Source: a virus (taxonomy: Duplodnaviria; Caudoviricetes). From it: 60,047 nt of DNA. Positions 5,270 through 23,528 of this stretch are shown one piece after another. The notes under the pieces are model-generated. The model was not told the DNA's origin. It did no database searches and worked only from the letters and a program-made list of their open reading frames with translations. The translations under genes were made by a program, and so were the position numbers. Location of the stretch: the IMG/VR virus record IMGVR_UViG_3300000101_000017, positions 1-60,047 of that record; one strand, written 5' to 3'. Each line of letters begins with the position of its first letter. Positions within the stretch are counted from its first letter, which is position 1.

Positions 5270-5351
5270 GGCTTCCAAATATGCTTATATGTATACTTAT
5301 CGGAGCATACCCAATCGTTCCATATAGTCTGATAAAATTATTGTGTCTCAT
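5236..5351 (-). pseudogene. Deleted/frameshifted remnant of a third TauD-like gene
   Basis: 5337->5236 translates FYQTIWNDWVCSDKYTYKHIWKPGDIMLIDYVL*, matching the TauD 'Y.H.W..GD.L..D' motif of both neighbours; a coupled ATG at 5351 is in a different frame. Confidence 0.65.
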
Positions 5352-8860: not shown

Positions 8861-9609
8861 TAATAGTTTCTCAAACAGCTCATTAACTTCATTACGTTTT
8901 CCCAAGTCTTAGGCACGTTTAAAATTAGGTGTAAACTATTATCTTCCCAACTATGTGTTCTATGTACTTTTCTTGTATCAACAAAATATGTTTTATTTGC
9001 AGTAATTGTTTGCCTAACATCATTTAACCACCATTCATAACTGTCCATTCCAGACTGTGATCCTAAGAATGTAATTACTCTAAAACAATCTCTTGTTAAA
9101 TGCGGGCTATCACGATGAGGAGGAAACCAGCCACCTTGATTACTTCTAATAATCATTGTGCGTCCAAGTGTACCCCAATAATTTAAAAGAGGTTGAATAC
9201 TAGTTAATTCGTTGTAGGCTTGCGTAGGATATTTGAAATCCTTTTCATATAGCATACGCCCTGCACGTTTAATTGCTTCTGGTCTGCTTAAACTATCGCT
9301 CGGTTTGTCGCCTTCTAATCCAACTAACAACAATCCCTCTCTGTCATTACTTACACCTTCTCGTCTAAGATATGGAACAAAGTTTTGTTGTTCAATTTGT
9401 TGGTGGAAAAGATTGTGATCATAGTAAATTTCTAGTTGTTCAAAATCTCCTAGTGCTTGTAGTTGTAGTTCGCACTTGATATCTTCTGCTGTAGGTTCTA
9501 AACTTGCAGGATCATTTTCCCAATAACTATAATAGTCTGATTGCGAACGATTAGCTTTTGGTGTTAAGTTTAAAGGTTTTCCGTCTTTATCTGTTTTCTT
9601 TAAATCCAT
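8860..9609 (-). CDS. Asp/Asn beta-hydroxylase-like Fe(II)/2OG oxygenase
   Basis: 'GRTMIIRSNQGGWFPPHRD', 'YFVDTRKVHRTHSWEDNSLHLILNV'. Confidence 0.72.
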   Translation of the reverse strand: MDLKKTDKDGKPLNLTPKANRSQSDYYSYWENDPASLEPTAEDIKCELQLQALGDFEQLEIYYDHNLFHQQIEQQNFVPYLRREGVSNDREGLLLVGLEGDKPSDSLSRPEAIKRAGRMLYEKDFKYPTQAYNELTSIQPLLNYWGTLGRTMIIRSNQGGWFPPHRDSPHLTRDCFRVITFLGSQSGMDSYEWWLNDVRQTITANKTYFVDTRKVHRTHSWEDNSLHLILNVPKTWENVMKLMSCLRNY

Positions 9610-10310
9610 TTAACAATCTCCTTGTATTCTGGCTTAGGATAAGCAAGATCTACCTTAGTAGGCTCGAAAGGTATCGGCTTTATTTTGTTTACTCTTGGAT
9701 CTAAATAATCATGTCGAATGTTTGGATCTTTTCCATATCCTATTCCCATTATAAATCTAAAGTCTAATGCTTTTTCATCCTCAGCTAGTTTAAATATTTG
9801 TGTCATCATTGCATAATTATTGCATACATTCTGACACATGCCACTTTGTATTCCGCGATTGGCTAGTGCCAACATAATATATGCAGAGAACAACCCTATT
9901 TCAATATTTTCTGTTTGTGCTTGATGACCACTAGGATCGTTAGTTCGTAAATTACCTTTGCCAAATCCATCTACTTTTCCTCTTTCACTATTTTTTTCAT
10001 AGCGTACTTCTGTATCTGCACACCATCTAGCATTAAATCCTAATAACCAAGGTGCAAGGACTTGAGGATTACCTGGATCATCTTCAGCTTGTAAATCTGC
10101 ATTCCTATGACATATAGTAAATATTTCTTTGCGTATTTCAGGATTATTATTTCTTAACATTCTTACTTGATAAGGAAACTGTTGATTCTTACTAGGAATG
10201 TTTGTAAGCACTTCTTTAATTGCTTCTTCAATTGTATCCTTGGTAGGAACAAGTTCTTCATCCCAAGCAAACGTAGTATGCCTAGCTTCTATTAAATTTA
10301 ACCATTCCAC
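9600..10310 (-). CDS. Nitroreductase-family flavoprotein
   Basis: 'IEARHTTFAW', 'IPSKNQQFPY', 'EIGLFSAYIMLALANRGIQSGMC', 'IMGIGY'. Confidence 0.78.
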   Translation of the reverse strand: MEWLNLIEARHTTFAWDEELVPTKDTIEEAIKEVLTNIPSKNQQFPYQVRMLRNNNPEIRKEIFTICHRNADLQAEDDPGNPQVLAPWLLGFNARWCADTEVRYEKNSERGKVDGFGKGNLRTNDPSGHQAQTENIEIGLFSAYIMLALANRGIQSGMCQNVCNNYAMMTQIFKLAEDEKALDFRFIMGIGYGKDPNIRHDYLDPRVNKIKPIPFEPTKVDLAYPKPEYKEIVKWI

Positions 10311-11422
10311 TATATCTTCCTTTTTGGTATCTTGCTATCAGCAGAACTTACACAACTTTTTGTAATACATGTCTTAGGTGTCTTAAACAGTTCAAACCCT
10401 GTTTCTATGTTACCAAGGGGTGCATCATGGCAAGAATAACTTCTTTTTATGCTACCGTCTGGCTCGCGTATTATAAGTCCGCTGTAACCGGCATTGCACC
10501 GCCATCCTTCAAAATTGTTAAAATTAAAGGCATTAAAGCGTTCTGCTTGATCCATATAGTACTTATCGCCCTTTGAATCTTCTAATTCAACTTGCATATG
10601 CCACGGAATACTTGTATCTAGTTTTCCATTTACTCCTGTAGGTATTTGGAATGAAGGCTTGGGCCTTTCTGCCCACTTACGTTTGCTTTCTGTATATGCT
10701 CGTTGTGGCATTCCGTTGTAGAGCTTTTTAAGGTCTTCTTCTTTGTAGCCTTCAACCACCCGGCTCGCAGTAGGATCGGATTGCGGTTTAAGGGTAACGT
10801 TGATTCCTTGTTCGTGAAAGAAGAGAGCATTTTCCCAATCCCTTTCAAACCAGTCTGGTACCATAACTTGATTAATTGTAACTTGTACATCGTGCTCCTG
10901 ACAGAAGATCAACTTGTCTGCAAAGTCTTGCATCTTCTCTTTGTTGTTTACGTGTTCTGTATGCAGACTTGCTGTAATACTTGCTCTATGAAATGGCTTT
11001 GCATACTCTACATAAGTTTCAAACCACTTCATTGGTCGACTACAATTAGACGTCATGTGTACACTTGTATAATTTGTATTCTCTACATCATCTGCTAAGT
11101 GCTTTAGTATATCTAAGTATCCAGGATGAAAAGTAGGCTCTCCTCCCGACAAGGAAAAGTGGAAACTGTTAAAACCGTTATCACGTGCCTGCCTCTTTAT
11201 CTCATCGATTGTAAGAAGACATAGCTCTGTTGGCCGGTGATCTTTACGATCTGATCTAGCGTATGGCCAACAATAACTACAACGATAGTTGCAAAAGCGA
11301 CCAAGGAGCCAACTAACAGTAAAAATATCTCTGTATAAGAGTGTTCTTTGACCCACCGAAACAATGTCGTCAAACGGGATCTTAGTAAAGTCATAATTGC
11401 TCCATTTTAAGTCTTCATTCAT
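10310..11422 (-). CDS. Radical SAM protein with C-terminal twitch-like Cys cluster (subfamily A)
   Basis: CNYRCSYC, 'FSLSGGEPT', 'TSNCS', C-terminal CNAG..SC..C..C. Confidence 0.92.
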   Translation of the reverse strand: MNEDLKWSNYDFTKIPFDDIVSVGQRTLLYRDIFTVSWLLGRFCNYRCSYCWPYARSDRKDHRPTELCLLTIDEIKRQARDNGFNSFHFSLSGGEPTFHPGYLDILKHLADDVENTNYTSVHMTSNCSRPMKWFETYVEYAKPFHRASITASLHTEHVNNKEKMQDFADKLIFCQEHDVQVTINQVMVPDWFERDWENALFFHEQGINVTLKPQSDPTASRVVEGYKEEDLKKLYNGMPQRAYTESKRKWAERPKPSFQIPTGVNGKLDTSIPWHMQVELEDSKGDKYYMDQAERFNAFNFNNFEGWRCNAGYSGLIIREPDGSIKRSYSCHDAPLGNIETGFELFKTPKTCITKSCVSSADSKIPKRKI

Positions 11423-11427
11423 AATTT

Positions 11428-11456
11428 AGTATAGCACCTTTTGTCTTATATGTCAA
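11428..11456 (-). promoter_or_regulatory. Sigma70-type promoter, probably giving a leaderless mRNA
   Basis: Minus strand TTGACA-17 nt-TATACT with extended -10 TGn; the ATG at 11422 is 5 nt after the -10 box, with no RBS. Confidence 0.8.
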
Positions 11457-12112
11457 GTATATCTATTAAATCCCCAGTGTCTTTCCATACACCACCAACA
11501 TTTACCACAATGCTTGTCAATATTGTATTCTAATGTGTTTTCAAACGCTTCACAACTACGTGTTAACGGAAATAGAGTATCTATAACTCCTAGTGTTTCG
11601 TACAATTCTGCAACACCTTTTTTGTCAATGTTAGAAAGATGTCTCCAAGAATTATTTACACGTACAGGAAAATTTTTTCCGTTCCTATCATCAGCAGGCC
11701 CATTGTGCAAATGCTGATCTGTAATTTCTTTAGGAGGGTTAGCTGTTATACCTGAATAGTTTCTATCAATGTTTTCATTAACACATGCTTCTTTCCAGAG
11801 ACGTTCTTGTGCAGTAATATAATCTGATGATCCATTACATATGTTTACATAATGCTTACCAAAAACATTACCAAATTTATTTGTAAGCCAATTTATAATA
11901 CGTTTAGAATACATTTCTTGAAATGGCTTCTCACTATGAATAGTTGTTATAGGTATTATTTTTATATCAGGACGTTCTTTTGTAATATATTCACATAACA
12001 TATATGCTATAATAGCACTATCTGCTCCGCCAGATATTTTTAAAGATACAGTTTTGACATCTATATCTTCCTCTAATATTATATTTTGTTGGCTGTTAGC
12101 GAAGATCATCAA
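11453..12112 (-). CDS. QueC-like PP-loop ATP pyrophosphatase
   Basis: 'SLKISGGADSA', 'DKKGVAELY', 'TRSCE...HCGKCWWCMER' Zn-site. Confidence 0.8.
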   Translation of the reverse strand: MMIFANSQQNIILEEDIDVKTVSLKISGGADSAIIAYMLCEYITKERPDIKIIPITTIHSEKPFQEMYSKRIINWLTNKFGNVFGKHYVNICNGSSDYITAQERLWKEACVNENIDRNYSGITANPPKEITDQHLHNGPADDRNGKNFPVRVNNSWRHLSNIDKKGVAELYETLGVIDTLFPLTRSCEAFENTLEYNIDKHCGKCWWCMERHWGFNRYT

Positions 12113-12891
12113 TCAATATCCGTAATTTCCGTTTTTAAATAGTATTTCCAATGATGATATGGTTCGCACCAGTCATCTTCTGTTAGAGTAAATTCACCAG
12201 TGTTTGTCCAACCTAATATCTTGTCATACATCATTTGATTATTTTCTATTGAGAGATGACATACTCTAGTGTCATAGTGTCCTAGTCTTTTATTTAATTT
12301 CTTTTTTGAGATTTTTTGATTTTTAACCCAAAAGTCTTCTTCCATAAATTGTAAGTCAGCAAGGGCTATTTCATTATTAAAAAGATCAGGCCTAGTATAT
12401 TTACACGAGTCGTGTTTTTTGATATATGGTCCAAAACAAGTTAAAATAAGCATATCTGGTTTTTTACGTTTAGCATCTTCTATCATTAAACTTGCTGTTG
12501 TATATTCTTTCTTTTGATCTAATACATAATAATAAGAATCTAAACATTCATAAACTAGCATATTCGAAGGTGGTATCTTTTCACCTTTTTGCATAAGCTG
12601 GTTTATGAATTGTTTATCACAGTACATTGGACTAAAATGTGATAGTGTAGGTATATCTGTTTTTGTGTTAGGTATGTATCCTCTCATTGGATCTGATACT
12701 GCCCAAATAATTAAATCGTAATCTTTTTCGTAGTGTTCTAGAAATTTTTGGTAACTCCAATATACTCCAGAACCACTAACACCTAAATTAGTAACAAGAA
12801 AATGTTCTTTAAGTTTGTCAACCCAGGAGTGTTCTTTATTAGGTCCGTAAGCTACTACAAAACTATCGCCTATTATTAGCAACTTCTTCAT
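12109..12891 (-). CDS. SGNH/GDSL hydrolase-like protein
   Basis: 'LIIGDSF', 'NLGVSGSG', C-terminal 'CHLSIENNQ'. Confidence 0.7.
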   Translation of the reverse strand: MKKLLIIGDSFVVAYGPNKEHSWVDKLKEHFLVTNLGVSGSGVYWSYQKFLEHYEKDYDLIIWAVSDPMRGYIPNTKTDIPTLSHFSPMYCDKQFINQLMQKGEKIPPSNMLVYECLDSYYYVLDQKKEYTTASLMIEDAKRKKPDMLILTCFGPYIKKHDSCKYTRPDLFNNEIALADLQFMEEDFWVKNQKISKKKLNKRLGHYDTRVCHLSIENNQMMYDKILGWTNTGEFTLTEDDWCEPYHHWKYYLKTEITDID

Positions 12892-14060
12892 TATAATTCC
12901 TTTAAAATAGATACGTCTATATGATTTTTTACTACATCAAGATAATTTTCTTTGTACTTACTTTTTGGGGCGCATAGGCCACAACCGCATGTATGTCTAG
13001 GACAAGTAATAGTGGGCATTGTTTTTGCCTTTAATTGTTTTCTTAAATTTTTTATAATTTTCTTACCTTCGCTTATTTTTCCAATTGGTCCTCTAGTACC
13101 GTCAAAACGTGCTTGACATGTTTGATGATGAAATACACTATCTGTTTGTTGTTCTAAATGTAAGAAAAACCAATTTACACTACATTGCCAGCCTTTAAAT
13201 TCACGCAAGTCGACAAACGTAGCATTGCGACTAACTCCTTTGTTAGACAAACACATCTCTCTACTACCACAACAAGGACGCCCAACAGTCATGCCTAATT
13301 TTTTCTTTTCAGTAGTTTTTTCTCCGGCGGCACTTAACACTTTTGCTGCTTCTACATCATCATTAAGTTTTGCGTTTTTATTCTTCCAAAAGTTTTTCAT
13401 GTAGTCTAATTGTTCATCGTTGTACTTGTGAGCGAAAGTAGGTTTACTGTCTCGTTCTTCACCAATAATTCTAGGAACATATTTTATTTTATGTTCATCT
13501 AAAAATTCACATAACGATTTACATTCGTCAAACAATTCTGCATGGAACATAACATTGACACTCAATGTTAATCCGTAGTCTGGTCCTTGAGTATGGAATT
13601 GTAATAACCTATCTCTAACTTGTTTTTTAAGTTTTTCGTTACTTTCAGCATGATAACTTACTGTTATATGCCTCATATTTTCCATAACCTTTGTTGCCAT
13701 TTTTTCACCCATGGCTCCGTTACTTGTAAGAGCAAAATTAGCCTTCCAGCTATTAGAATATTTTGCTTCGTATTCTTTTTTAAGGTATTGTATAAAAGGA
13801 ATGAAATTAGGATTAACTGTAGGCTCACCTCCAGTAAAACTTATACTTGCAAATTTAAAATCTCTGTACTTCATATGCAGATCTATATACTCGTATAGAA
13901 AATCAGTGTTTGCTTTTAGTTCATCTAATGTAGCATGTTTACTAAAATTATCATGTCGTGTTACAGGACAATAACTACAGTCATAGTTACACCTGCGCCC
14001 TGTGTCCCAAGTCACTTGAAATACATTACCTGTTAAAAGATCAATAGTATCAAAACTCAA
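12891..14060 (-). CDS. Radical SAM protein with C-terminal Cys cluster (subfamily A)
   Basis: CNYDCSYC, 'ISFTGGEPT', 'LTSNG', 'GRPCCG', 'WQC', 'CPRHTCGCGLC'. Confidence 0.92.
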   Translation of the reverse strand: MSFDTIDLLTGNVFQVTWDTGRRCNYDCSYCPVTRHDNFSKHATLDELKANTDFLYEYIDLHMKYRDFKFASISFTGGEPTVNPNFIPFIQYLKKEYEAKYSNSWKANFALTSNGAMGEKMATKVMENMRHITVSYHAESNEKLKKQVRDRLLQFHTQGPDYGLTLSVNVMFHAELFDECKSLCEFLDEHKIKYVPRIIGEERDSKPTFAHKYNDEQLDYMKNFWKNKNAKLNDDVEAAKVLSAAGEKTTEKKKLGMTVGRPCCGSREMCLSNKGVSRNATFVDLREFKGWQCSVNWFFLHLEQQTDSVFHHQTCQARFDGTRGPIGKISEGKKIIKNLRKQLKAKTMPTITCPRHTCGCGLCAPKSKYKENYLDVVKNHIDVSILKEL

Positions 14061-15012
14061 GTTTATTCTCCTTCATAGCCCATTGTCTTTCTACACACCA
14101 AAAGCATTGACCACACTCTGGTATGTGACTACCTTGATTATGTTTGTACCAATATAGATCTAGTCCAGACAATTTATCAACTCCGTTACCATCACCTTCG
14201 CAGCTACGTGTAGTTTTAAATAGGTCTAACTTATCATGGTCCATATATTGTTTCACTACCCAATCTTTTTCTATCATTTTTAGCGGCATGATTCTCCAAA
14301 AATCTGCCTTGTTCTTTGCTAAATCATCCATGCGAACTTTTTTAAGATTAATATCTCTGTTTCTCATCCTATCTTTTGTAGGAACATCCATGCTAGGATT
14401 TTTTGTAGTAGCATTATAGATTGCATCATAATCATTTTCATATTGAATATATGTGTTAAAACTATCAACAGTAATTTGGTCAGCACTACGTTTGCCAACA
14501 ATATTTCCAATAGCACCGTGTTCTAATTCAGGAGGAATAAAGTTACTGTAGCGTTCGCCAATTATTGTTGGATATAATTGTTTTAACTTTTGATATACTT
14601 TTTTACTTACTGGTCCTGCCCAGGGCCTTGCATTATAAACTCTTGTATGTGTAATAATATCTATTTTACAATTATAATTATTTTTTAAAATAATATCTGA
14701 TAAAAGGAAAGTAAGGCATGCACTATCTGCGCCGCCACTTAAATTTATAGCTACCTTTGTCCAATTAGGATTGAAAGGAAGATATACACCGTCAATAAGA
14801 TGAGCTTGTATTCCTTTTAAATTTAACGCTTCCTCTTTTTTGATAATTCTTTGCCTTTGTGTTTTTTTAGATTCTGAGCGTATGTGCTGTAGGTCATCTG
14901 ATCTGCGTATTTGTTTTATTCTACTATTACAGTCATTATCTATTTCTTTTAACACAGTATCAACATCAAAGTCAATGTTATACTTACAGTCTTTATAATA
15001 ATTAATTGACAT
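14050..15012 (-). CDS. QueC-like PP-loop ATP pyrophosphatase
   Basis: 'AINLSGGADSA', 'TRSCEGD', 'ECGQCFWCVER'. Confidence 0.8.
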   Translation of the reverse strand: MSINYYKDCKYNIDFDVDTVLKEIDNDCNSRIKQIRRSDDLQHIRSESKKTQRQRIIKKEEALNLKGIQAHLIDGVYLPFNPNWTKVAINLSGGADSACLTFLLSDIILKNNYNCKIDIITHTRVYNARPWAGPVSKKVYQKLKQLYPTIIGERYSNFIPPELEHGAIGNIVGKRSADQITVDSFNTYIQYENDYDAIYNATTKNPSMDVPTKDRMRNRDINLKKVRMDDLAKNKADFWRIMPLKMIEKDWVVKQYMDHDKLDLFKTTRSCEGDGNGVDKLSGLDLYWYKHNQGSHIPECGQCFWCVERQWAMKENKLEF

Positions 15013-17753: not shown

Positions 17754-17768
17754 TATATACGTACTTAT
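17751..17768 (-). promoter_or_regulatory. 18-nt motif ATAAGTACGTATATAATG (includes start codon), copy 1
   Basis: Identical to 22432-22449; lies directly on the start of a radical SAM gene. Confidence 0.65.
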
Positions 17769-18799
17769 TCCTTATTATGGTGTAATTCATTATTAATGGT
17801 ACTTATTACATTTTCTTTACAGTGTCTAGTGCAAGGTCTCCACGTTTCTTTTAGAATCATAGCATGTAAATCGTTATACCATGGACTATCTAAAATTTCT
17901 TGGAAACTATTTTTACCACTCAATACATTATCTAAAATATTATATTTGTATCCGTGTTTGTCATATAAATTTTGCATTTCTGTTTCAGTGCCTACCCAAC
18001 AGCACGGCAAAACTGTTCCTCTATTTGTAACATACAATCCTGTATCTAAACCAAAATAGTTAGGTCTACTTAGTGCTTTACATTGAATTTCAGTTGCAGG
18101 CTTTTCATTTTCTAATTGGAACTTAGGTGTTGATGCTTGTTTTACTTTTTCTATAGCATCACGCCCTTTGGTGCCTCGCCATTTGATGCCTTCAAATCCT
18201 TCGTCTATACTACGCTGTCTTGCTTCTTGATCTTGATGTTCATTATGACTGAAATATATAAACTGCCATATAGCACGGCCTCCATGTTTAATAAATGTTC
18301 TAAAGTTTTCTTGCAACTTATCCCATTTAACATTTACTCTGTAAATATGGTTGGTATCTTCAAGTCCATCAATACCCCAATTTACTTGTATCCTTTTAGT
18401 ACCTCCAGGTGAAATGTTAGCACTGCTAATCTCAGCAAGCTCTTTCCAAAACTCTTTGTTTCTTGTTCCGCCATTTGTAGAAATGTTTACTTTGAGATAG
18501 TTATTAAATCCTTTGTAACTCATTATCCATTTTACAATTTTTATTAGGTCTGGATTAGTTGTAGGTTCATCATAACTTCCACAAAAGTCTAACAACAATA
18601 AATTCTCCCAGTTATCTTTGTCAAACCAACTCTTAAATTGTTCAAGTGTTATAAAGTTATCATTTATACCTATATGTTTAGGTTGTACTTTACCGTCAAA
18701 TATTAATTCTCTTGCACACTGTGGACAACGTGCATTACAATAATTTGAGATTTCCATTTGTATCTTTTTAACATTTTTTGCTTCTACTGGCCAACCCAT
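17765..18799 (-). CDS. Radical SAM protein with C-terminal twitch/SPASM (subfamily C)
   Basis: CNARCPQC, 'FCGSYDEP', 'STNGG', 'FSHNEHQ', 'LPCCW', 'PCTRHC'. Confidence 0.9.
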   Translation of the reverse strand: MGWPVEAKNVKKIQMEISNYCNARCPQCARELIFDGKVQPKHIGINDNFITLEQFKSWFDKDNWENLLLLDFCGSYDEPTTNPDLIKIVKWIMSYKGFNNYLKVNISTNGGTRNKEFWKELAEISSANISPGGTKRIQVNWGIDGLEDTNHIYRVNVKWDKLQENFRTFIKHGGRAIWQFIYFSHNEHQDQEARQRSIDEGFEGIKWRGTKGRDAIEKVKQASTPKFQLENEKPATEIQCKALSRPNYFGLDTGLYVTNRGTVLPCCWVGTETEMQNLYDKHGYKYNILDNVLSGKNSFQEILDSPWYNDLHAMILKETWRPCTRHCKENVISTINNELHHNKE

Positions 18800-19344
18800 T
18801 ATACTACGCTCACATTTTCATATATTTGTGTAGCCGGACAATATTCATTCATTCTATATAGTCCAAATTTTATAAAAGGAGATATTGTATCATATTGTCT
18901 TGAGGAAGACAAGTAAATATTATCAATATAATAATCTACATTTATAAAATTTTCAATAATTGATATTTCTGCAAGTAAACTAAATTTATCGGTTGCAGTA
19001 ACAAAGGTATTTCCAAGTCCTACATGCCAAAATTTCTTACATACTGATAACAAACTAGGAGGCTGGCCTCCTACAACACCGTTGTGTAATTGAAATACGC
19101 TATACCATTCAGCCTGTGGAAATTCTTCTGCTTGTATATTAACATCGGCTTTAAATTTATATGTGCCTTCTGGTAGCAAAGTGCTTTTTACTTCGTTACG
19201 CTCTTTGTAATCCCACATCTTATTTCCATAGACGTTATATTCTGGATCAGAATCACCGTTGCACTTGCCTCTAGCATTTTTAAAAGTATAAGTGTTGTCT
19301 TTTACAGTATATGTACTATTACAACTAGGAATAAATTTTATCAT
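18799..19344 (-). CDS. Polysaccharide lyase-like (heparin lyase I / PL jelly-roll) protein
   Basis: 'ERNEV', 'VFQLH', 'FIKFGLYR' match the RxE / QxH / YxKxGxYR pattern of jelly-roll lyases. Confidence 0.55.
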   Translation of the reverse strand: MIKFIPSCNSTYTVKDNTYTFKNARGKCNGDSDPEYNVYGNKMWDYKERNEVKSTLLPEGTYKFKADVNIQAEEFPQAEWYSVFQLHNGVVGGQPPSLLSVCKKFWHVGLGNTFVTATDKFSLLAEISIIENFINVDYYIDNIYLSSSRQYDTISPFIKFGLYRMNEYCPATQIYENVSVV

Positions 19345-20297
19345 AATTCTTCCTTAATAAATTTATCTCTAATTTTTTCTGCACATGTACTTTCACATTT
19401 AGGTATACGTACATCATCAGTCCAACTATCTTTAATGCCATTCCACACTTTGCTATTCATTGCTTGATCTAAACTAACATTTTTTAAGTTAATGTCATTT
19501 AGATAATCGTGTTCAACTAGCAAGTCCTCAAACTTATCTTTTATTTTGTGACTTACAGGAAATTCTAACATTTTACTATTCAAATGACAACAAGGAATTA
19601 CATTACCCATATGGTTAACAAATATACGTTTTTGGTTTGCATACTTACAGCTAATACAAGGTTGTGGTTTAGGATTTCGATCTACTTTTGCTCTTTTATG
19701 CTTAACATCTTTTGTATCTTTTCTGTGACTAATAATAGTTTTAAAATCACGGAAGCCTTCATCTTTGGCCATTTGCTTTGCAGTTTCTAATTGGTGCTCG
19801 TTGTGTTCAAAACTAATAAACTGCCAGACACTTTGTCCACCAGCTGCTATAAAAGCTCTAAAGTTCTTTTGCACTTTTTGAAAACTAGATCCTTGTCTGT
19901 ATACTTCTGACAATTCGTCACTGCCGTCAATACCCCAAGTTACTCTATGACTGCATGTTAATTCTTTTGCTAGTTTTTCCCACCATTGTATTGTACGTAA
20001 ACTTCCATTAGTAGCAATATTAATATGACATCCCCAAGCAGCAAAGTGTTTGATAATGTCATGGAACTGAGGATGACTACATGGCTCGTCAACACTACCA
20101 CAAAAATTTATTATTTTTATGTTAGGAAACATGTCTTTTTGAAACTTTTCTTTTATAGTATCTAAGTCAAGATATGTTTTATTAAGTATGTCATCTTTGT
20201 AGTCTGATAGCACACGAAAACATCCTTTGCATTTAATATTACAAAAACTAGTTAGTTCAATATCTATCCATTCTAATGTTTCGCTAGACCATGTCAT
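19341..20297 (-). CDS. Radical SAM protein with C-terminal twitch/SPASM (subfamily C)
   Basis: CNIKCKGC, 'FCGSVDEP', 'ATNGS', 'FEHNEHQ', 'IPCCH', 'KCESTC'. Confidence 0.9.
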   Translation of the reverse strand: MTWSSETLEWIDIELTSFCNIKCKGCFRVLSDYKDDILNKTYLDLDTIKEKFQKDMFPNIKIINFCGSVDEPCSHPQFHDIIKHFAAWGCHINIATNGSLRTIQWWEKLAKELTCSHRVTWGIDGSDELSEVYRQGSSFQKVQKNFRAFIAAGGQSVWQFISFEHNEHQLETAKQMAKDEGFRDFKTIISHRKDTKDVKHKRAKVDRNPKPQPCISCKYANQKRIFVNHMGNVIPCCHLNSKMLEFPVSHKIKDKFEDLLVEHDYLNDINLKNVSLDQAMNSKVWNGIKDSWTDDVRIPKCESTCAEKIRDKFIKEEL

Positions 20298-21409
20298 TCA
20301 AAGCACCATCCTATTATTCTTTTACTGTCTGTTCCTCTTTTAGCATCTAAATCTAAAAGATAATTTTGCATTACACCATTTAGTACACTGTTGTATTCAT
20401 ATTGATTACAATATTGCTTTACTTCCTCTATACTTGTGTTAGTCATTACATTATCAACTACATGAGGTTTGAGTGCATTAATTTGAAGATAATTGGGCCA
20501 AACTAAATTATGCATAGCAATTGAAAAAATACAAGCATTACTCCATCTATCTTTAAGATTGTTAACTAACGTATCTATATTAGGTAAGTTCATTGCTTGA
20601 ACTGTTATAGAAAAACCAAAACTATCTCTTGTGCCGCAAAGAGAATTTATTTCATCAGTCATAGTTATAAATGTATTGTGATTGGTTGGAAATCTAATAA
20701 GTTCGTTTACTTCTCCCCAGCCATCAACACTTATAGTAAAGTTACGTTTTTTAAATTTTGCTAATACATTCATTAACTTTGGTGTATTACTAACTCCATT
20801 TGTTTGAATTTTTATAAGTGTATTTTTACAGTTCCATTCATTTTTTGATAATTCAAATAAAAATTTATAAACATTTTTCATGTAAAATGGTTCGCCGCCG
20901 GCAAAATAAATAGACTCTGCTTTGTCTATAACTTGACTGTAAATCCAATCCCAATCAAGATCTTCTCTAGTTGTTTTTTGAATAATGTTGCTGGTGTATT
21001 TTTCTTCAATATCTTTATCTTCAAGCCATTTGCTACTGTTGCCGTAATTACACATAGCACATTTTAAATTGCAAGTGTTACTAGGACGTAGGTCCCAATT
21101 AACTATGTGCCCGTTATATCCAGATTGTAAACTACGCTTACGTTTAGTAGGCAAATCTAGTTTTTCCTTTTGTATACAGATTCGGCATTCAGATTGTTTA
21201 CGCCAGTTTCCTTTAAACTTTTCTCTTATATTATTAATAACAGGATTATCTAACAACTCCTGTATAGTGTCAACTGTATGTTTATCATGGTCGTTTTGGT
21301 ACAAGCAACAAGGTTTAATATTGTAGCCGTCATTGCCTAATTCTACATACATACTGTTTATAGATTCTAAGCAATGATGTCTTTCATATTTTCTTTTAAG
21401 TTTTTTCAT
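20294..21409 (-). CDS. Radical SAM protein with N-terminal twitch-like domain (subfamily B)
   Basis: 'HC', 'KPCC', 'ECRIC'; CNLKCAMC + 'SSKW'; 'FAGGEPF', 'QTNG'. Confidence 0.9.
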   Translation of the reverse strand: MKKLKRKYERHHCLESINSMYVELGNDGYNIKPCCLYQNDHDKHTVDTIQELLDNPVINNIREKFKGNWRKQSECRICIQKEKLDLPTKRKRSLQSGYNGHIVNWDLRPSNTCNLKCAMCNYGNSSKWLEDKDIEEKYTSNIIQKTTREDLDWDWIYSQVIDKAESIYFAGGEPFYMKNVYKFLFELSKNEWNCKNTLIKIQTNGVSNTPKLMNVLAKFKKRNFTISVDGWGEVNELIRFPTNHNTFITMTDEINSLCGTRDSFGFSITVQAMNLPNIDTLVNNLKDRWSNACIFSIAMHNLVWPNYLQINALKPHVVDNVMTNTSIEEVKQYCNQYEYNSVLNGVMQNYLLDLDAKRGTDSKRIIGWCFE

Positions 21410-22434
21410 TCAACGTTAATTTCATTTTGATATGCTTTGTTATATGCACATGTTCTAATACAACGTGTAAGATGCTTGTTGTGTGCTGGATCCCAACTGT
21501 CGCCTAGTACTTTATCAAACCACGGATGTACAAGTACTTCTTCAATGCTGTTTGTTTTCAAACTATTCCAACCTGTTTGATATTCACTTAATTTATCTAA
21601 TATGTTTTCTTTATTTTTAAAAGCACTGTCCCATAGGAAACAACAAGGCCATAGTTCTTGTTTAGCACTTATAAAAATTTCGCCTTCATGTATCAATTTA
21701 CATTTTACAGTTTGAATAATTTTCTTATCGACTTTGTTTGCTTTAATAATTTTATCTAACTTTTGGATCTGTGCTTTTTTACTGTGTTCTTTTTTACCTG
21801 TGGTTGTAATAACTTTCTTTTCTTGTTGATTTTTCTTTCCAATTAATGCAACCCAGTCATGATAACTATTACGCATTCCTGTGCGAGTTGCAAATTCAAA
21901 TCCTAAACGTTTTGCATGTTCTCTTGCGGCATCTAATTCATGTTCATTATGGTCAAAGACAATAAAGATCCAAGTTGCTTTGCCGCCTGCATCGCTGTAG
22001 GCTTGCATATTTCTTTCAAGTACATTCCACTTTGTACCAACCCTGTAAATATGATTAGTTTCTTTATGCCCGTCAACACAAAAGTTTACATCAACTAGTT
22101 GTGTATCTTTACTAATTTGTCCTAATTTAGTCCACCAGTCTGCGGTTTGGTATGCGCCGTTTGTACTCCACTGACAATAGCCACCTGACTCTGTAAGATA
22201 TTCTGTCATTAGCACACCGTCTTTGTTTAATGCAGGGTCTCCTAAAACACCGCAAAATTTAAATTGCTTGTTAGCAATATATCTTTCGTTAGGAAACAAT
22301 CTCTTTATATCATCTAAGTAAAAACTTTCAACATCAAACAAGTCTATATTTTGTGTTCTTGCACAACCAGGACATGCCGCATTACAATTACTTGTAATTT
22401 CTAGTTCTATTTTTTTAATATTATCTATATTCAT
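21406..22434 (-). CDS. Radical SAM protein with C-terminal twitch/SPASM (subfamily C)
   Basis: CNAACPGC, 'FCGVLGDP', 'STNGA', 'FDHNEHE', 'WPCCF', 'RCIRTC'. Confidence 0.9.
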   Translation of the reverse strand: MNIDNIKKIELEITSNCNAACPGCARTQNIDLFDVESFYLDDIKRLFPNERYIANKQFKFCGVLGDPALNKDGVLMTEYLTESGGYCQWSTNGAYQTADWWTKLGQISKDTQLVDVNFCVDGHKETNHIYRVGTKWNVLERNMQAYSDAGGKATWIFIVFDHNEHELDAAREHAKRLGFEFATRTGMRNSYHDWVALIGKKNQQEKKVITTTGKKEHSKKAQIQKLDKIIKANKVDKKIIQTVKCKLIHEGEIFISAKQELWPCCFLWDSAFKNKENILDKLSEYQTGWNSLKTNSIEEVLVHPWFDKVLGDSWDPAHNKHLTRCIRTCAYNKAYQNEINVE

Positions 22435-22449
22435 TATATACGTACTTAT
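22432..22449 (-). promoter_or_regulatory. 18-nt motif ATAAGTACGTATATAATG, copy 2
   Basis: Identical to 17751-17768. Confidence 0.65.
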
Positions 22450-22451
22450 CT

Positions 22452-23528
22452 CTACTTAAACTGCTCAGCAAACGGATCAAATTCTGCACCGCATTTCATT
22501 GCACATACTTTTAATTTGCCATCTCCGCAACTAGGTTTATTCCAACTTTCTTGTATATCATCGAATATACCTGTTTTAAAAACTTTATCTAATCCGTTAC
22601 GTGCATCTAGTGCATTCTTATCTGGAATAAAATCCCATATCTGTTCTACTTTAGGATCTTTATGCCACCATTTGTACATACGTCCAGCAGTCCAACAACA
22701 AGGTAATGCAAGCCCTTCTGCTGAAATATATAAACTGTTGTCTTTTTTAACTTTGCATATTACAGGTGCGGCATCATAATAAGCATCCATACTACCGTAC
22801 TTGTTTATGATTACTTCTTGCTTGCTAAGAGCTTTGTTTAAATATTTTTTATCTGGTTTTTTAAGCTCTGCTGAATCTTTACCTTTTCTATCTTTGGCTT
22901 GATGACTTTCTTTAGGTTTTGTTTTTGTGTCTATGAATCTTCCTGTTTTCTTTTTCATAAACTTTTCACATCCCCATTCGTTAGCAAGTGCTTCTGCTTC
23001 TTCCACTTGATGTTGGTTATGTTCAAAGATTAAAAAGTCCCAACGAGCTCTACCACCAGCTGAAATAAATGCTTTCATATTACGTTCTACGTTGTTCCAA
23101 ACAACACCTTGACGATATATATGGTTAGTATCCCGTAAACCATCAACGCTAAAAATAACAGCACCCATCCTACCAAGAGTTGTCGCCAAGTCGCGCCACC
23201 ATATTTCATTCTTTGCTCCTGCGTTTGTATTCATACTCAACCACATGTTAGGATTATGCTCTCTAAAGTATTTGAATATTTCTAATGTGTCTTTAGCAAC
23301 AATAGGATCTCCTAAGTTTCCGCACATGTACATTGTCTTTAACTGTTTAATAAAGTCTGGTGTAAAGATTTGTTTACAATCATCTAATTTAAGTTCGTCT
23401 AAGTTAATATGCGGATTGATACCTTCGCCATTCATGTTTCTATCACACATTGGGCAACTTGCCTGACAATTTTGTGTAACTTCTAAATGTATAGATCTTA
23501 TATCTTCATATCTATACATCTTTTGCAT
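22452..23528 (-). CDS. Radical SAM protein with C-terminal twitch/SPASM (subfamily C)
   Basis: CQASCPMC, 'MCGNLGDP', 'NTNAG', 'FEHNQHQ', 'LPCCW', 'VCAMKC'. Confidence 0.9.
   Translation of the reverse strand: MQKMYRYEDIRSIHLEVTQNCQASCPMCDRNMNGEGINPHINLDELKLDDCKQIFTPDFIKQLKTMYMCGNLGDPIVAKDTLEIFKYFREHNPNMWLSMNTNAGAKNEIWWRDLATTLGRMGAVIFSVDGLRDTNHIYRQGVVWNNVERNMKAFISAGGRARWDFLIFEHNQHQVEEAEALANEWGCEKFMKKKTGRFIDTKTKPKESHQAKDRKGKDSAELKKPDKKYLNKALSKQEVIINKYGSMDAYYDAAPVICKVKKDNSLYISAEGLALPCCWTAGRMYKWWHKDPKVEQIWDFIPDKNALDARNGLDKVFKTGIFDDIQESWNKPSCGDGKLKVCAMKCGAEFDPFAEQFK

What the first reader, a model, noticed from the sequence alone, without database searches (positions are those of the whole stretch)
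10310..23528. Nine radical SAM genes in 13 kb forming three paralogous subfamilies
Seen: subfamily A (10310, 12891: W..G..CNYxCSYC, GGEPT, C-terminal Cys cluster); subfamily B (15002, 16335, 20294: auxiliary Cys cluster at the N-terminus, SS.W after the CxxxCxxC motif); subfamily C (17765, 19341, 21406, 22452). All keep an intact CxxxCxxC motif. Inference: local duplication and diversification, each copy acting on a different position or residue of a shared substrate. This is a large Fe-S investment for a virus.
Basis: partly seen in the sequence, partly recalled or inferred. Interest (0 to 1): 0.8.

Follow-up and report, generated by a model that had tools for sequence, protein, structure and literature searches.

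The report
Nine-gene radical SAM island in phage
A marine giant phage carries nine intact radical SAM enzyme genes next to its tail-fibre and sugar-transferase genes, a recurring but biochemically unstudied cassette that probably decorates a surface structure.

Summary
Nine intact radical SAM (rSAM) genes lie at 10310-23528 on the minus strand and fall into three families: A x2, B x3, C x4.

The paralogues are 22-32% identical to each other, but each has orthologues of 50-96% identity in other phage contigs. An AU test rejects the four C copies as one clade (p 1.8e-36). The paralogy is therefore old and the cassette is mosaic, not duplicated in place.

- **How common it is:** 41 of 81 related viral loci hold 5 or more such genes, and 15 of 81 hold 9 or more.
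- **Earlier reports:** multi-rSAM phages are in print (Campylobacter phage CP220, a T4-like marine genome with 12 rSAM genes, pelagimyophage cassettes). None of those papers assigns a function.
- **Context found here:**
  - The genes sit in a gapless operon after fibre-like genes and four GT-A-type glycosyltransferase domains.
  - A core of GT-A, B2, A1 and C4 recurs in Bdellovibrionales chromosomes.
  - B1 is fused to a PP-loop ATPase in four viral loci.
  - A cultured Ralstonia jumbo phage has a B-type rSAM gene between two GT-A genes.
- **Best reading (0.4):** a modular island that tailors a surface or virion glycoconjugate. The substrate is not shown.

The parts
30673..30680 (-). TATAAATA, a T4-late-promoter-like motif 32 nt upstream of the start of the first gene of the operon
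   Evidence: the motif is strongly depleted in the window (2 vs 15.2 expected; ATAAATA 10 vs 48). 4 of 5 minus-strand ATAAATA sites lie in intergenic spacers 18-32 nt before the structural-gene starts at 30641, 32202, 36858 and 55393. None lies at the rSAM block. That this consensus is a late promoter is recalled knowledge of T4-like phages.
29691..30641 (-). Ser/Thr/Ala/Gly-rich fibre-like protein (316 aa), first gene after the promoter-like motif; a candidate acceptor
   Evidence: Translation. Homologue of Ralstonia phage RsoM2USA ORF355, which also matches the N-terminus of the collar-domain fibre 34192-36240 (Collar domain). The acceptor role is inference.
28492..29310 (-). GT8-like (glycogenin-like) glycosyltransferase
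   Evidence: A profile of this gene, its paralogue and their orthologues hits glycogenin, E 2e-6, over the N-terminal ~94 positions. No Pfam hit at E<=0.01.
27690..28499 (-). Second GT8-like glycosyltransferase, paralogue of 28492-29310
   Evidence: 23% identical to its neighbour. Both are conserved upstream of the island in many viral loci.
24245..27172 (-). 975-aa multidomain protein: GT-A domain 1 (aa ~1-290), GT-A domain 2 (aa ~305-540), about seven diverged ~21-residue repeats, and a C-terminal methyltransferase-like domain (aa ~745-975)
   Evidence: Weak Pfam Glycos_transf_2 hit. The AF2 model of domain 2 (pLDDT 86.6) gives Foldseek hits to the GT-A enzymes RmlT, WrtF, SunS, ppGalNAc-T, PBCV-1 A64R, ArnC and TarS (E 1e-5 to 1e-3, TM ~0.38). 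The C-terminal domain has only an ESM-Atlas lead to Methyltransf_31 and no PDB sequence hit. The repeats were read from the translation and are not seen at DNA level.
24024..24245 (-). 73-aa ORF, start and stop overlapping both neighbours; no cysteine
23512..24027 (-). 171-aa ORF of unknown function (Z); missing in some natural variants
   Evidence: No family hit. Contigs of runs X1 and X20 join 23518 to 24028.
22452..23528 (-). rSAM C4 (family C); part of the conserved core
   Evidence: (phrog_21308). Orthologues are 64-85% identical in viral loci and 44-48% in Bdellovibrionales.
21406..22434 (-). rSAM C3 (family C)
20294..21409 (-). rSAM B3 (N-terminal-twitch family NF033640)
   Evidence: 189.3 bits vs cut-off 170
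19341..20297 (-). rSAM C2 (family C)
   Evidence: Best cultured relative is CP220 gp084, 27.6%.
18799..19344 (-). 181-aa ORF of unknown function (Y)
   Evidence: No family hit. Orthologues found in only 2 loci.
17765..18799 (-). rSAM C1 (family C)
   Evidence: (534 homologues at E<=1e-5 among 1459 candidates)
16335..17753 (-). rSAM B2 (NF033640); part of the conserved core
   Evidence: 421.8 bits vs 170. SPASM-type hit on residues 15-100. Orthologues are 79-91% identical in viral loci and 54-59% in Bdellovibrionales.
15002..16342 (-). rSAM B1 (NF033640); fused to the next gene in other phages
   Evidence: 201.7 bits. ORFs of 827-836 aa in L012, L013, L014 and L069 carry the B1 part at the N-terminus; the PP2-like C-terminus was checked by alignment in L013 only.
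14050..15012 (-). PP-loop ATPase PP2 (SGGADS motif, C-terminal Cys motif as in QueC)
   Evidence: (26% to PP1, E 2e-15). Overlaps B1 by 11 bp in another frame. DNA contigs of three runs cross this junction and no insertion or deletion is listed there among the rows shown.
12891..14060 (-). rSAM A2 (family A), with many C-terminal cysteines
12109..12891 (-). 260-aa ORF (X). The N-terminal GDS motif suggests an SGNH-type hydrolase, but this is my reading only.
   Evidence: Translation. No family hit.
11453..12112 (-). PP-loop ATPase PP1
   Evidence: PF06508 QueC 24.4 bits, on the last ~52 residues only.: QueC TIGR00364 scores 17.1 bits vs cut-off 150.3.
10310..11422 (-). rSAM A1 (family A), the most conserved gene of the island; part of the core
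   Evidence: Orthologues are 75-95% identical in most viral loci and 60-67% in Bdellovibrionales. Four invariant extra cysteines: C309, C331, C352, C357. AF2 pLDDT 86.7.
9600..10310 (-). 236-aa ORF, possibly of the nitroreductase fold (weak)
   Evidence: PDB phmmer E 0.11 to a nitroreductase, N-terminal 64 residues only. No Pfam hit. Homologues lie next to A1 in several loci.
8860..9609 (-). 249-aa ORF, possibly an Asp/Asn-hydroxylase-like cupin; conserved near the island in phages and Bdellovibrionales
   Evidence: ESM-Atlas lead: PF05118 on 11-16% of the members of the nearest clusters. Homologues. No Pfam or PDB hit.
8174..8905 (-). 243-aa ORF of unknown function, conserved beside 8860-9609
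7768..8172 (-). Redoxin / peroxiredoxin-like protein
   Evidence: PF08534, E 1.2e-12
5348..6250 (-). TauD/TfdA-family Fe(II)/2-oxoglutarate dioxygenase
   Evidence: E 1.4e-21
4616..5227 (-). Asp/Asn beta-hydroxylase-like protein
   Evidence: PF05118, 25.2 bits vs cut-off 22.6
3844..4644 (-). Second TauD/TfdA-family dioxygenase
   Evidence: E 3.6e-16
2445..3728 (-). Fusion of an NADPH-dependent FMN reductase (flavodoxin-like) with a methyltransferase; a candidate electron donor for the Fe-S clusters
   Evidence: FMN_red E 3.7e-13, Methyltransf_25 E 3.8e-6. The donor role is inference.

Best explanation
The nine genes are the radical-chemistry part of a modular tailoring island for a surface glycoconjugate.

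Proposed working:
- Glycosyltransferases (two GT8-like proteins and the two GT-A domains of the 975-aa protein) put sugars on an acceptor. In this phage the acceptor is most likely a tail-fibre or other virion protein encoded just upstream.
- The rSAM paralogues each cleave SAM at their CxxxCxxC cluster. With an auxiliary cluster they carry out a different radical step on the sugar or on the residue that bears it, for example epimerisation, dehydration or deoxygenation, decarboxylation, or C-C or C-X bond formation.
- The PP-loop ATPases adenylate a carboxyl or carbonyl group for amidation.
- Fe/2OG oxygenases and methyltransferases add further marks.
- The FMN-reductase domain could supply electrons.

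Shown: the gene identities, the operon structure, the conserved GT-A + B2 + A1 + C4 core, and the B1-PP-loop fusion (domain-checked in one of four loci).

Inferred: the substrate class, the individual reactions, and expression timing.
For: 1. **One tight operon with glycosyltransferases.** From 30641 down to 5348 the minus-strand genes overlap or are at most 57 bp apart (at most 30 bp within the rSAM block; coordinates). They follow a late-promoter-like motif at 30673-30680. The order is fibre-like gene, GT8 x2, GT-A x2 plus MTase-like domain, then the rSAM block.
2. **rSAM genes interleaved with GT-A genes elsewhere.** In Ralstonia phage RsoM2USA the order is GT8, GT8, one unmatched ORF, GT-A domain 1 (43%), a B-type rSAM (473 aa), GT-A domain 2 (45%), MTase-like domain (30%). 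L015-L018 show the same pattern; L068 has several rSAM genes at that position.
3. **GT-A is the conserved non-rSAM partner in cells.** Pieces matching the 975-aa protein lie beside B2 (54-59%), A1 (60-67%) and C4 (44-48%) on Bdellovibrionales MAG contigs. In L095, L105 and L107 these pieces align with its GT-A domain. These contigs also carry ABC-transporter genes, and the four MAGs show no T4-type capsid gene.
4. **Sugar genes among the cellular neighbours.** Of 136 neighbour ORFs in 15 such loci: GT2 5, Glyco_tranf_2_2 3, UDP-Glc/GDP-Man dehydrogenase 3, NAD epimerase/dehydratase 3, GDP-Man dehydratase 2, DegT aminotransferase 2, RmlD 2.
5. **CP220 precedent.** The rSAM cluster of CP220 holds two nucleotide-diphospho-sugar transferase genes and an amidinotransferase gene.
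6. **PP-loop works with a B-type rSAM.** Four viral loci carry a B1 orthologue of 827-836 aa; in L013 its C-terminal part aligns with PP2 at 54%.
7. **Linkage in viral loci.** 25 of 41 viral loci with 5 or more rSAM genes also hold a homologue of the 975-aa protein.
8. **Sugar-acting structural neighbours.** The twitch rSAM enzymes BlsE, DesII, AbmM and BtrN, which I recall as sugar-acting (the output gives only entry titles), are among the structural neighbours of A1. BlsE ranks first: Z 14.8, rmsd 4.0, 269 aligned.
Against: - No substrate was identified.
- The structural neighbours of A1 are tied within about 1 Z unit. They include peptide enzymes (SkfB 14.6, PqqE 14.2, EpeE 14.0, CteB 13.7) and nucleotide enzymes (viperin-like 13.7, MoaA 13.3).
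- The window encodes no recognisable NDP-sugar synthesis enzyme.
- The Pfam tally of 150 of 207 viral neighbour ORFs looks more like peptide or natural-product tailoring than sugar work: Nitroreductase 7, Asp_Arg_Hydrox 5, AMP-binding 3, Trp_halogenase 2, P450 1, against UDPG dehydrogenase 2.
- 16 of 41 viral loci rich in rSAM genes show no homologue of the 975-aa protein within the DNA held. Only 4 of 14 rSAM-rich cellular loci do.
- The Foldseek TM-scores for the GT-A model are low (~0.38), and nucleotidyltransferases also appear in the list.
- The cellular tally has no measured background, and 10-kb flanks hold unrelated genes.
- The promoter reading is a motif argument only.
Confidence: 0.4

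Rival explanations
1. Direct post-translational modification of structural (fibre or baseplate) proteins. The SPASM/twitch-type rSAM paralogues install cross-links, epimerisations or other radical marks on different motifs of fibre proteins. The Asp/Asn hydroxylase-like and TauD-like oxygenases hydroxylate residues. The glycosyltransferases act separately.
For: - Most curated relatives that the nine proteins touch weakly are peptide or protein maturases: anSME, PapB, YhhB, SkfB, mycofactocin and tungsten-enzyme maturases.
- The structural neighbours of A1 include SkfB, PqqE, EpeE, CteB, SuiB and anSME.
- The window holds one Pfam-supported Asp/Asn hydroxylase-like gene and one lead, plus two TauD genes.
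- Asp_Arg_Hydrox recurs among the neighbours: 5 of 150 viral, 4 of 136 cellular.
- The island follows fibre genes in one operon.
Against: - No peptide-binding (RRE/PqqD-like) domain appeared in the Pfam hits of the nine proteins. A and C start their rSAM core within the first 10-45 residues.
- Fibre-like genes were not found beside the Bdellovibrionales clusters by blastp against window proteins.
- It does not explain why a B-type rSAM gene lies between two GT-A genes, nor why GT-A is the conserved partner in cells.
Confidence: 0.2
2. Remodelling of the host cell envelope (O-antigen, capsule or lipid A) during infection, for example to block superinfection. This is what was proposed for glycosyltransferases in pelagimyophage host-recognition clusters.
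For: - PMC7029224 (passages) proposes host O-chain modification for the glycosyltransferases of this genomic region, and notes rSAM cassettes there.
- Cellular homologues lie in chromosomes beside nucleotide-sugar and GT2 genes.
- I recall that some Asp/Asn hydroxylase homologues act on lipid A. No call here tests that.
Against: - The block has no promoter-like motif of its own and lies after late-type motifs and structural genes. An exclusion function would be expected early.
- No membrane transporter, flippase or polymerase gene was recognised in the window.
- Timing is not measured, so this argument is weak.
Confidence: 0.15
3. Biosynthesis of a small molecule (a glycosylated natural product, cofactor or peptide-derived compound) that serves the infection, with the rSAM enzymes as pathway steps.
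For: - The viral neighbour tally holds AMP-binding 3, Trp_halogenase 2, aminotransferases 3, sulfotransferase 1, P450 1, aldo-keto reductase 1 and methyltransferases 9.
- A cyanophage paper reports an rSAM gene beside an aminotransferase-family gene and an amidinotransferase gene (PMC12801897, passages).
- CP220 and one Bdellovibrio locus have pentein or amidinotransferase-like neighbours.
Against: - No scaffold-forming enzyme (NRPS, PKS or precursor peptide) was recognised in the window. The only small ORF (73 aa) has no cysteine.
- Gene content varies strongly between loci. That fits tailoring of a polymer better than a fixed pathway.
- The position inside the structural module argues against it.
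Confidence: 0.12
4. Nucleotide or DNA hypermodification. The family A enzymes act on nucleoside triphosphates as viperin and MoaA do. The QueC-like PP-loop ATPases amidate a base-linked carboxylate. The GT-A domains glycosylate DNA bases.
For: - The family A profile's best solved relatives by sequence are viperin-like enzymes and MoaA (E 1e-7 to 2e-5).
- There are NCBIfam viperin and MoaA hits below cut-off and a PHROG 'QueE-like' hit, E 1.8e-7.
- PP1 and PP2 share the C-terminal Cys motif with QueC.
- I recall that phages are known to glycosylate DNA and to use 7-deazaguanines.
Against: - QueE, QueC, MoaA and viperin equivalog scores are far below their cut-offs: 17-41 bits vs 150-450.
- No thymidylate-synthase-like, kinase or transglycosylase gene was recognised in the window.
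- The island sits in the structural module and is shared with bacterial chromosomes, where it neighbours sugar genes.
- Only about 16% of the genome is in hand, so absence elsewhere is not shown.
Confidence: 0.08

Closest known systems
Radical SAM clusters of Campylobacter phages CP220/CPt10 (Timms et al. 2010, PMC2853527; passages seen)
   Same: A myovirus with many rSAM genes (11 and 12). Several lie in a block, with nucleotide-diphospho-sugar transferase genes and other tailoring genes beside them. CP220 gp080, gp083 and gp084 are family C relatives (25-29% identity) and gp081 and gp099 weakly resemble family A. The function is unknown there too.
   Different: Only distant sequence relatives. 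No B-type (NF033640) gene and no 975-aa-type GT-A gene were seen in the 25-kb CP220 stretch by blastp. The host and habitat differ. The authors proposed a metabolic benefit at low oxygen, not a link to surface structures.
Marine T4-like genomes with rSAM cassettes: TARA_ERS488813_N000010 with 12 rSAM genes (PMC5332604, section 14 read) and the pelagimyophage 'host recognition cluster' (PMC7029224, passages)
   Same: Marine myoviruses with many rSAM genes. The cassettes lie in the variable region with tail fibres and glycosyltransferases. 81 related IMG/VR loci show the same families and gene order. One T4-like contig (with Gp23), binned into a MAG, holds at least 9 of these genes.
   Different: This window is probably from a jumbo myovirus, not a T4-like phage. 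Its baseplate hub is nearest to PA5oct (35%) and 121Q-type phages (30%), it is syntenic with RsoM2USA, and CheckV puts completeness at 16%. The papers give no family assignment or function. Their supplementary gene tables could not be opened, so I cannot say whether the same families are listed there.
NCBIfam NF033640, 'twitch domain-containing radical SAM protein' (N_Twi_rSAM)
   Same: B1, B2 and B3 exceed its curated cut-off (201.7, 421.8 and 189.3 bits vs 170) over nearly the full profile. They have the N-terminal Cys-rich domain ahead of the CxxxCxxC core.
   Different: The family is a 'subfamily' model without an assigned reaction. Families A and C match it only over the shared core (28-52 bits).
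Ralstonia jumbo phage RsoM2USA, ORFs 347-355 (MG752970; paper PMC8504454, passages)
   Same: The only cultured phage in the collection with the GT-A domain family (1 record of 50,697). The order is syntenic: giant structural protein, fibre-like protein, small protein, GT8 x2, GT-A domain 1, B-type rSAM, GT-A domain 2, MTase-like domain.
   Different: It has one rSAM gene in the module instead of nine, and no A or C family gene in the 30-kb stretch. All these ORFs are annotated hypothetical. A word search of the paper found no occurrence of 'radical'.
Solved twitch/SPASM radical SAM enzymes (BlsE, SkfB, PqqE, EpeE, anSME, viperin, MoaA)
   Same: The A1 model has the partial TIM-barrel rSAM core plus a C-terminal Cys-bearing extension. 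Z is 13-14.8 with 224-269 residues aligned.
   Different: Sequence identity is 8-18%. No neighbour stands out, so the fold gives no substrate.
QueC/QueE 7-deazaguanine pathway
   Same: A PP-loop ATPase with a QueC-like C-terminal Cys motif lies next to rSAM genes.
   Different: QueC and QueE models are matched far below their cut-offs. The PP-loop partner shown by gene fusion is a B-type rSAM, not a QueE-like one.

Membership tests
Radical SAM superfamily (PF04055) | CxxxCxxC motif for the SAM-binding [4Fe-4S] cluster | tested here: met
   Exactly one motif in each of 9 of 9 proteins. It is kept in 580 of 602 homologous ORFs of 200 aa or more in related loci.
Radical SAM superfamily (PF04055) | Pfam model score over the gathering cut-off (29.5 bits) | tested here: met
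   8 of 9 are over the cut-off in hmmscan; C4 scores 26.0 bits. 7 of 9 are over it in the six-frame search. C4 belongs by its 25-30% identity, E 1e-32 to 1e-39, to C1-C3.
Radical SAM superfamily (PF04055) | Reductive SAM cleavage activity | not testable with these tools
   Needs purified, reconstituted protein.
NF033640 N-terminal-twitch rSAM (family B) | Full-length match over the curated cut-off of 170 bits | tested here: met
   B1 201.7, B2 421.8, B3 189.3 bits. Families A and C score 28-52 bits and are not members.
SPASM/twitch auxiliary-cluster rSAM enzymes | Conserved extra cysteines outside the CxxxCxxC motif, able to bind a second cluster | tested here: inconclusive
   - A1: C309, C331, C352 and C357 are invariant in 24 of 24 sequences.
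- C family: C73, C266, C267, C323 and C327 are invariant in 12 of 12.
- B family: C96 and C99 invariant, C33 nearly invariant, in 13.
- Pfam SPASM is over its cut-off only for B2 (24.6 vs 21.5); C1 scores 20.9 and C2 17.3.
- Cluster binding itself is not testable here.
   Best scores are viperin_w_prok 41.1 vs 180, MoaA 40.5 vs 284, NrdG2 23.0 vs 131, and QueE 20.6 vs 260.
QueC (7-cyano-7-deazaguanine synthase), for PP1 and PP2 | Full-length QueC model match | tested here: not met
   TIGR00364 scores 17.1 vs 150.3 for PP1 and gives no hit for PP2. Pfam QueC scores 24.4 bits, on the last ~52 residues of PP1 only. The PP-loop SGGADS motif is read directly from both translations.
GT-A fold glycosyltransferases (the two N-terminal domains of the 975-aa protein) | GT-A (Rossmann-like nucleotide-sugar binding) fold with a DxD-type motif | tested here: met
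   The AF2 model has pLDDT 86.6. There are 48 PDB matches at E<=1e-3, led by GT-A transferases. An invariant G-D pair within 'VDGD' lies at the usual position. TM-scores are low (~0.38) and nucleotidyltransferases also match. Transfer activity was not tested.
GT8 (glycogenin-like), for 27690-28499 and 28492-29310 | Sequence-profile match to GT8 structures, and a DxD motif | tested here: inconclusive
   The profile matches glycogenin at E 2e-6, but only over ~94 N-terminal positions. D87 is nearly invariant and D89 invariant. There is no Pfam hit at E<=0.01.
RiPP (ribosomal peptide) maturation cluster | A precursor peptide gene and a peptide-recognition (RRE) domain | tested here: inconclusive
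   The only small ORF not nested in a gene is 73 aa and has no cysteine. No RRE/PqqD-type family appeared among the Pfam hits of the nine proteins. Neither result excludes a large protein substrate.
Phage DNA hypermodification system | A base-exchange or base-modifying enzyme (transglycosylase, hydroxymethylase or kinase) with the tailoring genes | not tested
   None was recognised among the window ORFs scanned, but no targeted search was run and only about 16% of the genome is held.

The most novel reading that the evidence does not exclude
The island is a diversity generator for the host-recognition apparatus. A conserved GT-A + B2 + A1 + C4 core builds an unusual radical-modified sugar or linkage on fibre or surface proteins. 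The swappable extra rSAM, PP-loop and oxygenase cassettes vary its decoration between phage lineages. On this reading, marine myoviruses and predatory Bdellovibrionales, which both attack Gram-negative cells from outside, share and exchange a previously unrecognised class of radical-SAM-tailored surface glycoconjugate.
Probability: 0.25. Interest if true: 0.8.

Novelty: new member of a known kind. Interest (0 to 1): 0.55.

Why it matters
Three abundant rSAM families have no characterised member. One of them (family C) has at least 582 relatives in viral contigs. The partner GT-A family has at least 8000 relatives in metagenomic proteins, and every named row among the 120 listed is called hypothetical.

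If the island decorates fibres or surface glycans, it would add radical chemistry to the means by which phages vary host recognition. It would also explain why ocean phages invest in so many Fe-S enzymes.

This report adds concrete handles for experiments that earlier descriptive reports did not offer:
- the conserved four-gene core;
- the rSAM-PP-loop fusion;
- the link to Bdellovibrionales chromosomes;
- a cultured phage with a one-rSAM version of the module.

Tried and rejected
- **Close DNA relatives in cultured phages.** A megablast search of the 13-kb block found none.
- **Fused forms of family C.** The search among longer proteins found none, which is weak evidence by the tool's own note.
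- **Pfam, PHROG and NCBIfam scans of X, Y, Z, 7109-7768, 8174-8905, 8860-9609 and 9600-10310.** Nothing usable.
- **PDB sequence searches.** No hit for the GT-A domain profile, the C-terminal domain of the 975-aa protein or 8860-9609.
- **Fold search with the A1 model.** It did not separate sugar, peptide and nucleotide enzymes.
- **Strict PP-loop + family A gene pair.** I considered this because each A gene follows a PP gene in the window, and dropped it. In other loci the PP genes sit elsewhere or are absent, and the fusion partner is B1.
- **'T4-like pelagimyophage' as the identity of this record.** Rejected in favour of a jumbo myovirus.
- **Sigma-70 promoter and terminator scans of the block.** At background level: 94 vs 91.5 and 11 vs 7.1 expected.
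- **tRNA genes.** None in the window.
- **RNA library X20.** Its contigs lie on parts of the block, but the tool warns that DNA can be present in such libraries. Expression is therefore not shown.
- **Long-range joints between paralogues in the laid contigs.** The flanks are short (23-48 letters), so I did not read them as real deletions.
- **DNA-level tandem repeats in the 975-aa gene.** None in the repeat region.
- **Supplementary tables.** The supplements of PMC5332604 and PMC7029224 are closed and were not seen. They may list the rSAM genes of those genomes.
- **Literature searches that found nothing on the GT-A or Bdellovibrio link:**
  - 'phage-encoded radical SAM', 0 papers;
  - Bdellovibrio + radical SAM + glycosyltransferase, 1 paper, unrelated by title;
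  - radical SAM + jumbo phage + glycosyltransferase, 0 papers;
  - twitch domain + radical SAM + phage, 2 papers.

Full report
**What is there.** The window is a 60,047-bp IMG/VR virus record that CheckV rates as 16% complete. Almost all of its genes are on the minus strand.

- It encodes a myovirus baseplate: a gp5-like hub at 55909-57318 and a gp25-like wedge at 55450-55896.
- It also has a 4999-aa ORF (36879-51878), a collar-domain fibre (34192-36240) and fibre-like proteins.
- The hub's nearest cultured relatives are jumbo phages: PA5oct-type at 35% and 121Q-type at 30%.
- Gene order matches Ralstonia jumbo phage RsoM2USA.

I therefore read the record as a fragment of a marine jumbo myovirus. 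Near-identical DNA occurs in marine or seawater metagenome runs. 20 of the 24 listed rows hold part of the stretch and 10 hold at least half of the sampled words. Those 20 rows name 9 studies, and one row names none.

**The observation.** Nine ORFs at the stated coordinates are rSAM proteins.

- Pfam PF04055 matches 9 of 9, and 8 of 9 exceed the gathering score.
- A six-frame search of the record finds these nine places and no others.
- Each has exactly one CxxxCxxC.
- Blastp separates three families: A1/A2 at 22% identity (E 2e-12), B1/B2/B3 at 24-26%, and C1-C4 at 25-32% (E down to 5.5e-45).
- Family B meets the curated cut-off of NCBIfam NF033640, the N-terminal-twitch rSAM family.
- Families A and C meet no curated family. 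MoaA, QueE, NrdG, viperin and all peptide-maturase equivalogs score far below their cut-offs.
- Each family keeps extra invariant cysteines that could bind an auxiliary cluster.

**Duplication in place, or old paralogy.** Related loci came from two scans. The second used a family B alignment against GTDB genomes: 117 of 174 hits, 79 loci kept.

- In FastTree trees, every window paralogue lies in its own starred clade with genes from other contigs:
  - C1 10 rows, C2 13, C3 14, C4 19;
  - A1 19, A2 9;
  - B1 11, B2 18-20, B3 5-7.
- In an IQ-TREE tree of 32 family C sequences, forcing C1-C4 together costs 1830 lnL units (p-AU 1.8e-36). The orthologues for that tree were picked by best blast hit, which favours clean groups. 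The identity gap is large in any case: 50-96% for orthologues against 22-32% for paralogues.
- dN/dS between orthologue pairs is 0.03-0.11 for 11 of 12 rSAM pairs. It is 0.24 for C1 against L009, where few changes exist. dS is at or near saturation in several pairs.
- Identity to the closest relative, L009, jumps from gene to gene in nt terms: C1 97%, C3 86%, B2 80%, C4 78%, C2 76%, Y 67%. C2 is 92% identical (aa) to L014, whose C1 is only 57% identical. This pattern points to exchange of single cassettes.
- L069 has two C3-type genes side by side. Their grouping is not resolved, so local duplication may happen in some lineages.

**How common it is.** Counting ORFs of 200 aa or more that hit the window's A, B or C proteins at E<=1e-5 within at most 21 kb:

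- 41 of 81 viral loci hold 5 or more, 15 of 81 hold 9 or more, and the maximum is 13;
- 36 of 81 hold all three families.

The loci were chosen through family C, so these are not population frequencies. rSAM genes of other families are missed by this count: 7 more turned up by Pfam among 150 neighbour ORFs.

Print precedents:
- CP220 and CPt10, with 11 and 12 rSAM genes (PMC2853527, passages);
- a T4-like marine genome with 12 (PMC5332604, section 14);

None of them assigns a function.

**Context in the window.** From 30641 to 5348 the minus-strand genes overlap or are at most 57 bp apart. The motif ATAAATA is depleted, with 10 sites against 48 expected. 4 of its 5 minus-strand sites sit 18-32 nt before structural-gene starts, the last of them at 30673-30680. 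None lies at the rSAM block.

Gene order downstream of that site:
1. a Ser/Thr-rich fibre-like protein and a small protein;
2. two glycogenin-like GT8 proteins (profile E 2e-6) and a 176-aa ORF;
3. a 975-aa protein with two GT-A domains, diverged repeats and a methyltransferase-like end (AF2 pLDDT 86.6; Foldseek hits to RmlT, WrtF, SunS, ppGalNAc-T, PBCV-1 A64R, ArnC and TarS);
4. a 73-aa ORF and ORF Z;
5. the block itself: C4, C3, B3, C2, Y, C1, B2, B1, PP2, A2, X, PP1, A1;
6. a possible nitroreductase-fold protein;
7. two conserved ORFs, one with an Asp/Asn-hydroxylase lead;
8. a redoxin;
9. two ORFs without a family hit (7109-7768 and 6214-7116);
10. two TauD dioxygenases, an Asp/Asn hydroxylase-like protein and an FMN-reductase-methyltransferase fusion.

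**Links between the parts.**

- *Fusion.* In L012, L013, L014 and L069 the B1 orthologue is an ORF of 827-836 aa. In L013, the one inspected, its C-terminal part aligns with PP2 at 54%. In the window the two genes overlap by 11 bp in different frames. Contigs of three DNA runs cross the junction, and no indel is listed there among the rows shown, so the split does not look like an assembly error of this record.
- *A GT-A partner in cells.* Bdellovibrionales and Pseudobdellovibrionaceae MAG contigs carry B2 (54-59%), A1 (60-67%), C4 (44-48%) and pieces that match the 975-aa protein. PP-loop, A2 and C3 homologues are often present as well. In L095, L105 and L107 those pieces align with its GT-A domain. 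In L097 and L103 they align with its C-terminal domain.
- *These contigs look chromosomal.* The four MAGs tested show no T4 capsid gene. The cluster contigs also carry ABC-transporter genes. Housekeeping families appear among the flanks. The four MAGs hold 12-37 matches to NF033640 each, not all over the cut-off.
- *Mis-binned phage DNA.* One 'Chloroflexota' MAG contig with the cluster carries Gp23 and is a T4-like phage genome that was mis-binned. L091-L094 are probably phage DNA in MAG bins too, since they are 58-89% identical.
- *A cultured relative.* Only one cultured phage has the GT-A family: RsoM2USA (1 of 50,697 records). There a B-type rSAM gene lies between the two GT-A genes, after two GT8 genes and fibre-like genes. 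L015-L018 show the same interleaving.

**What it most likely does.** The constant companions of the rSAM genes are glycosyltransferases.

- Among 136 neighbour ORFs in 15 Bdellovibrionota loci, Pfam finds sugar genes:
  - GT2 5, Glyco_tranf_2_2 3;
  - UDP-Glc/GDP-Man dehydrogenase 3, epimerase/dehydratase 3;
  - GDP-Man dehydratase 2, DegT 2, RmlD 2.
- The same tally holds 9 further rSAM genes and 8 B12-binding hits.
- CP220's cluster has two sugar-transferase genes.

I therefore favour a tailoring island for a surface glycoconjugate. In the phage this is probably a decoration of fibre or virion proteins.

The case is not closed, for four reasons:
- The viral neighbour tally leans toward peptide or natural-product tailoring (Nitroreductase 7, Asp_Arg_Hydrox 5, AMP-binding 3, Trp_halogenase 2, 150 of 207 ORFs scanned, loci after L067 dropped).
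- The window has no NDP-sugar synthesis gene.
- The A1 fold does not discriminate between substrate classes (BlsE 14.8, SkfB 14.6, PqqE 14.2, EpeE 14.0, viperin-like 13.7).
- Timing is inferred from a motif.

Direct protein modification, host-envelope remodelling, a small-molecule pathway and nucleotide or DNA modification remain open, in that order.

**Novelty.** Multi-rSAM phage islands are known as an observation. This window is a new member, from a jumbo phage.

What appears not to be in the papers I could search:
- the three-family anatomy;
- the GT-A + B2 + A1 + C4 core;
- the rSAM-PP-loop fusion;
- the Bdellovibrionales connection;
- the RsoM2USA module.

Supplementary tables of the two marine papers were closed.

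Noticed in passing
window 36879-51878 (-): A single 4999-aa ORF follows a 1171-aa ORF (51878-55393) and baseplate genes. It has weak similarity to the virion-confirmed 2541-aa structural protein ORF361 of RsoM2USA.
   Followed up: partly
window, whole; sites 30673, 32223, 36876, 55417 (-): TATAAATA and ATAAATA are strongly depleted (2 vs 15 and 10 vs 48 expected). 4 of 5 minus-strand copies sit in intergenic spacers just before structural genes, as expected for a late promoter.
   Followed up: partly
window 15002-15012; L012, L013, L014, L069: B1 and the PP-loop gene PP2 overlap by 11 bp in different frames here. In four related loci the B1 orthologue is an ORF of 827-836 aa, and the one inspected (L013) carries PP2 at its C-terminus. 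Contigs of three DNA runs support the split form.
   Followed up: yes
window 23518-24028 and 10309-10317: Natural variants exist. Contigs of two runs lack ORF Z precisely. One contig has 711 extra letters between A1 and the next gene.
   Followed up: no
window 2445-3728 (-): A fusion of an NADPH-dependent FMN reductase (flavodoxin-like) with a methyltransferase lies at the end of the gene array. It could be the reductant for the Fe-S enzymes.
   Followed up: no
G001-G004 (genomes of L095, L105, L107, L100): Bdellovibrionales MAGs hold 12 to 37 matches each to the N-terminal-twitch rSAM model, spread over several contigs. This is a very large expansion for a bacterium. L112 has eight B-type genes, seven of them codirectional within about 10 kb.
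   Followed up: partly
L139 / G005 contig C1; L091-L094: A 161-kb contig binned as a Chloroflexota MAG carries a T4-type major capsid gene and at least nine of these rSAM genes, so it is a phage genome. Small contigs in Flavobacteriaceae, Crocinitomicaceae, Neisseriaceae and Pseudobdellovibrionaceae MAGs are 58-89% identical to the window's genes and are probably phage DNA too.
   Followed up: partly
window 24245-27172 (-), aa ~560-740: About seven diverged ~21-residue repeats lie between the GT-A domains and the C-terminal domain. They are not detectable as DNA tandem repeats.
   Followed up: partly
L055 9092-15773: Giant rSAM fusion proteins occur in a related viral locus. One of 1417 aa has two rSAM stretches plus a SPASM domain. 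One of 813 aa joins a B-type rSAM to a weak aminotransferase match.
   Followed up: no
GT-A domain family (alignment A7): The GT-A domain of the 975-aa protein belongs to a very large family. 8000 of the 8000 scored candidates match at E<=1e-3. Of the 120 listed, all rows that carry a name are called hypothetical, and only two carry any Pfam domain.
   Followed up: partly
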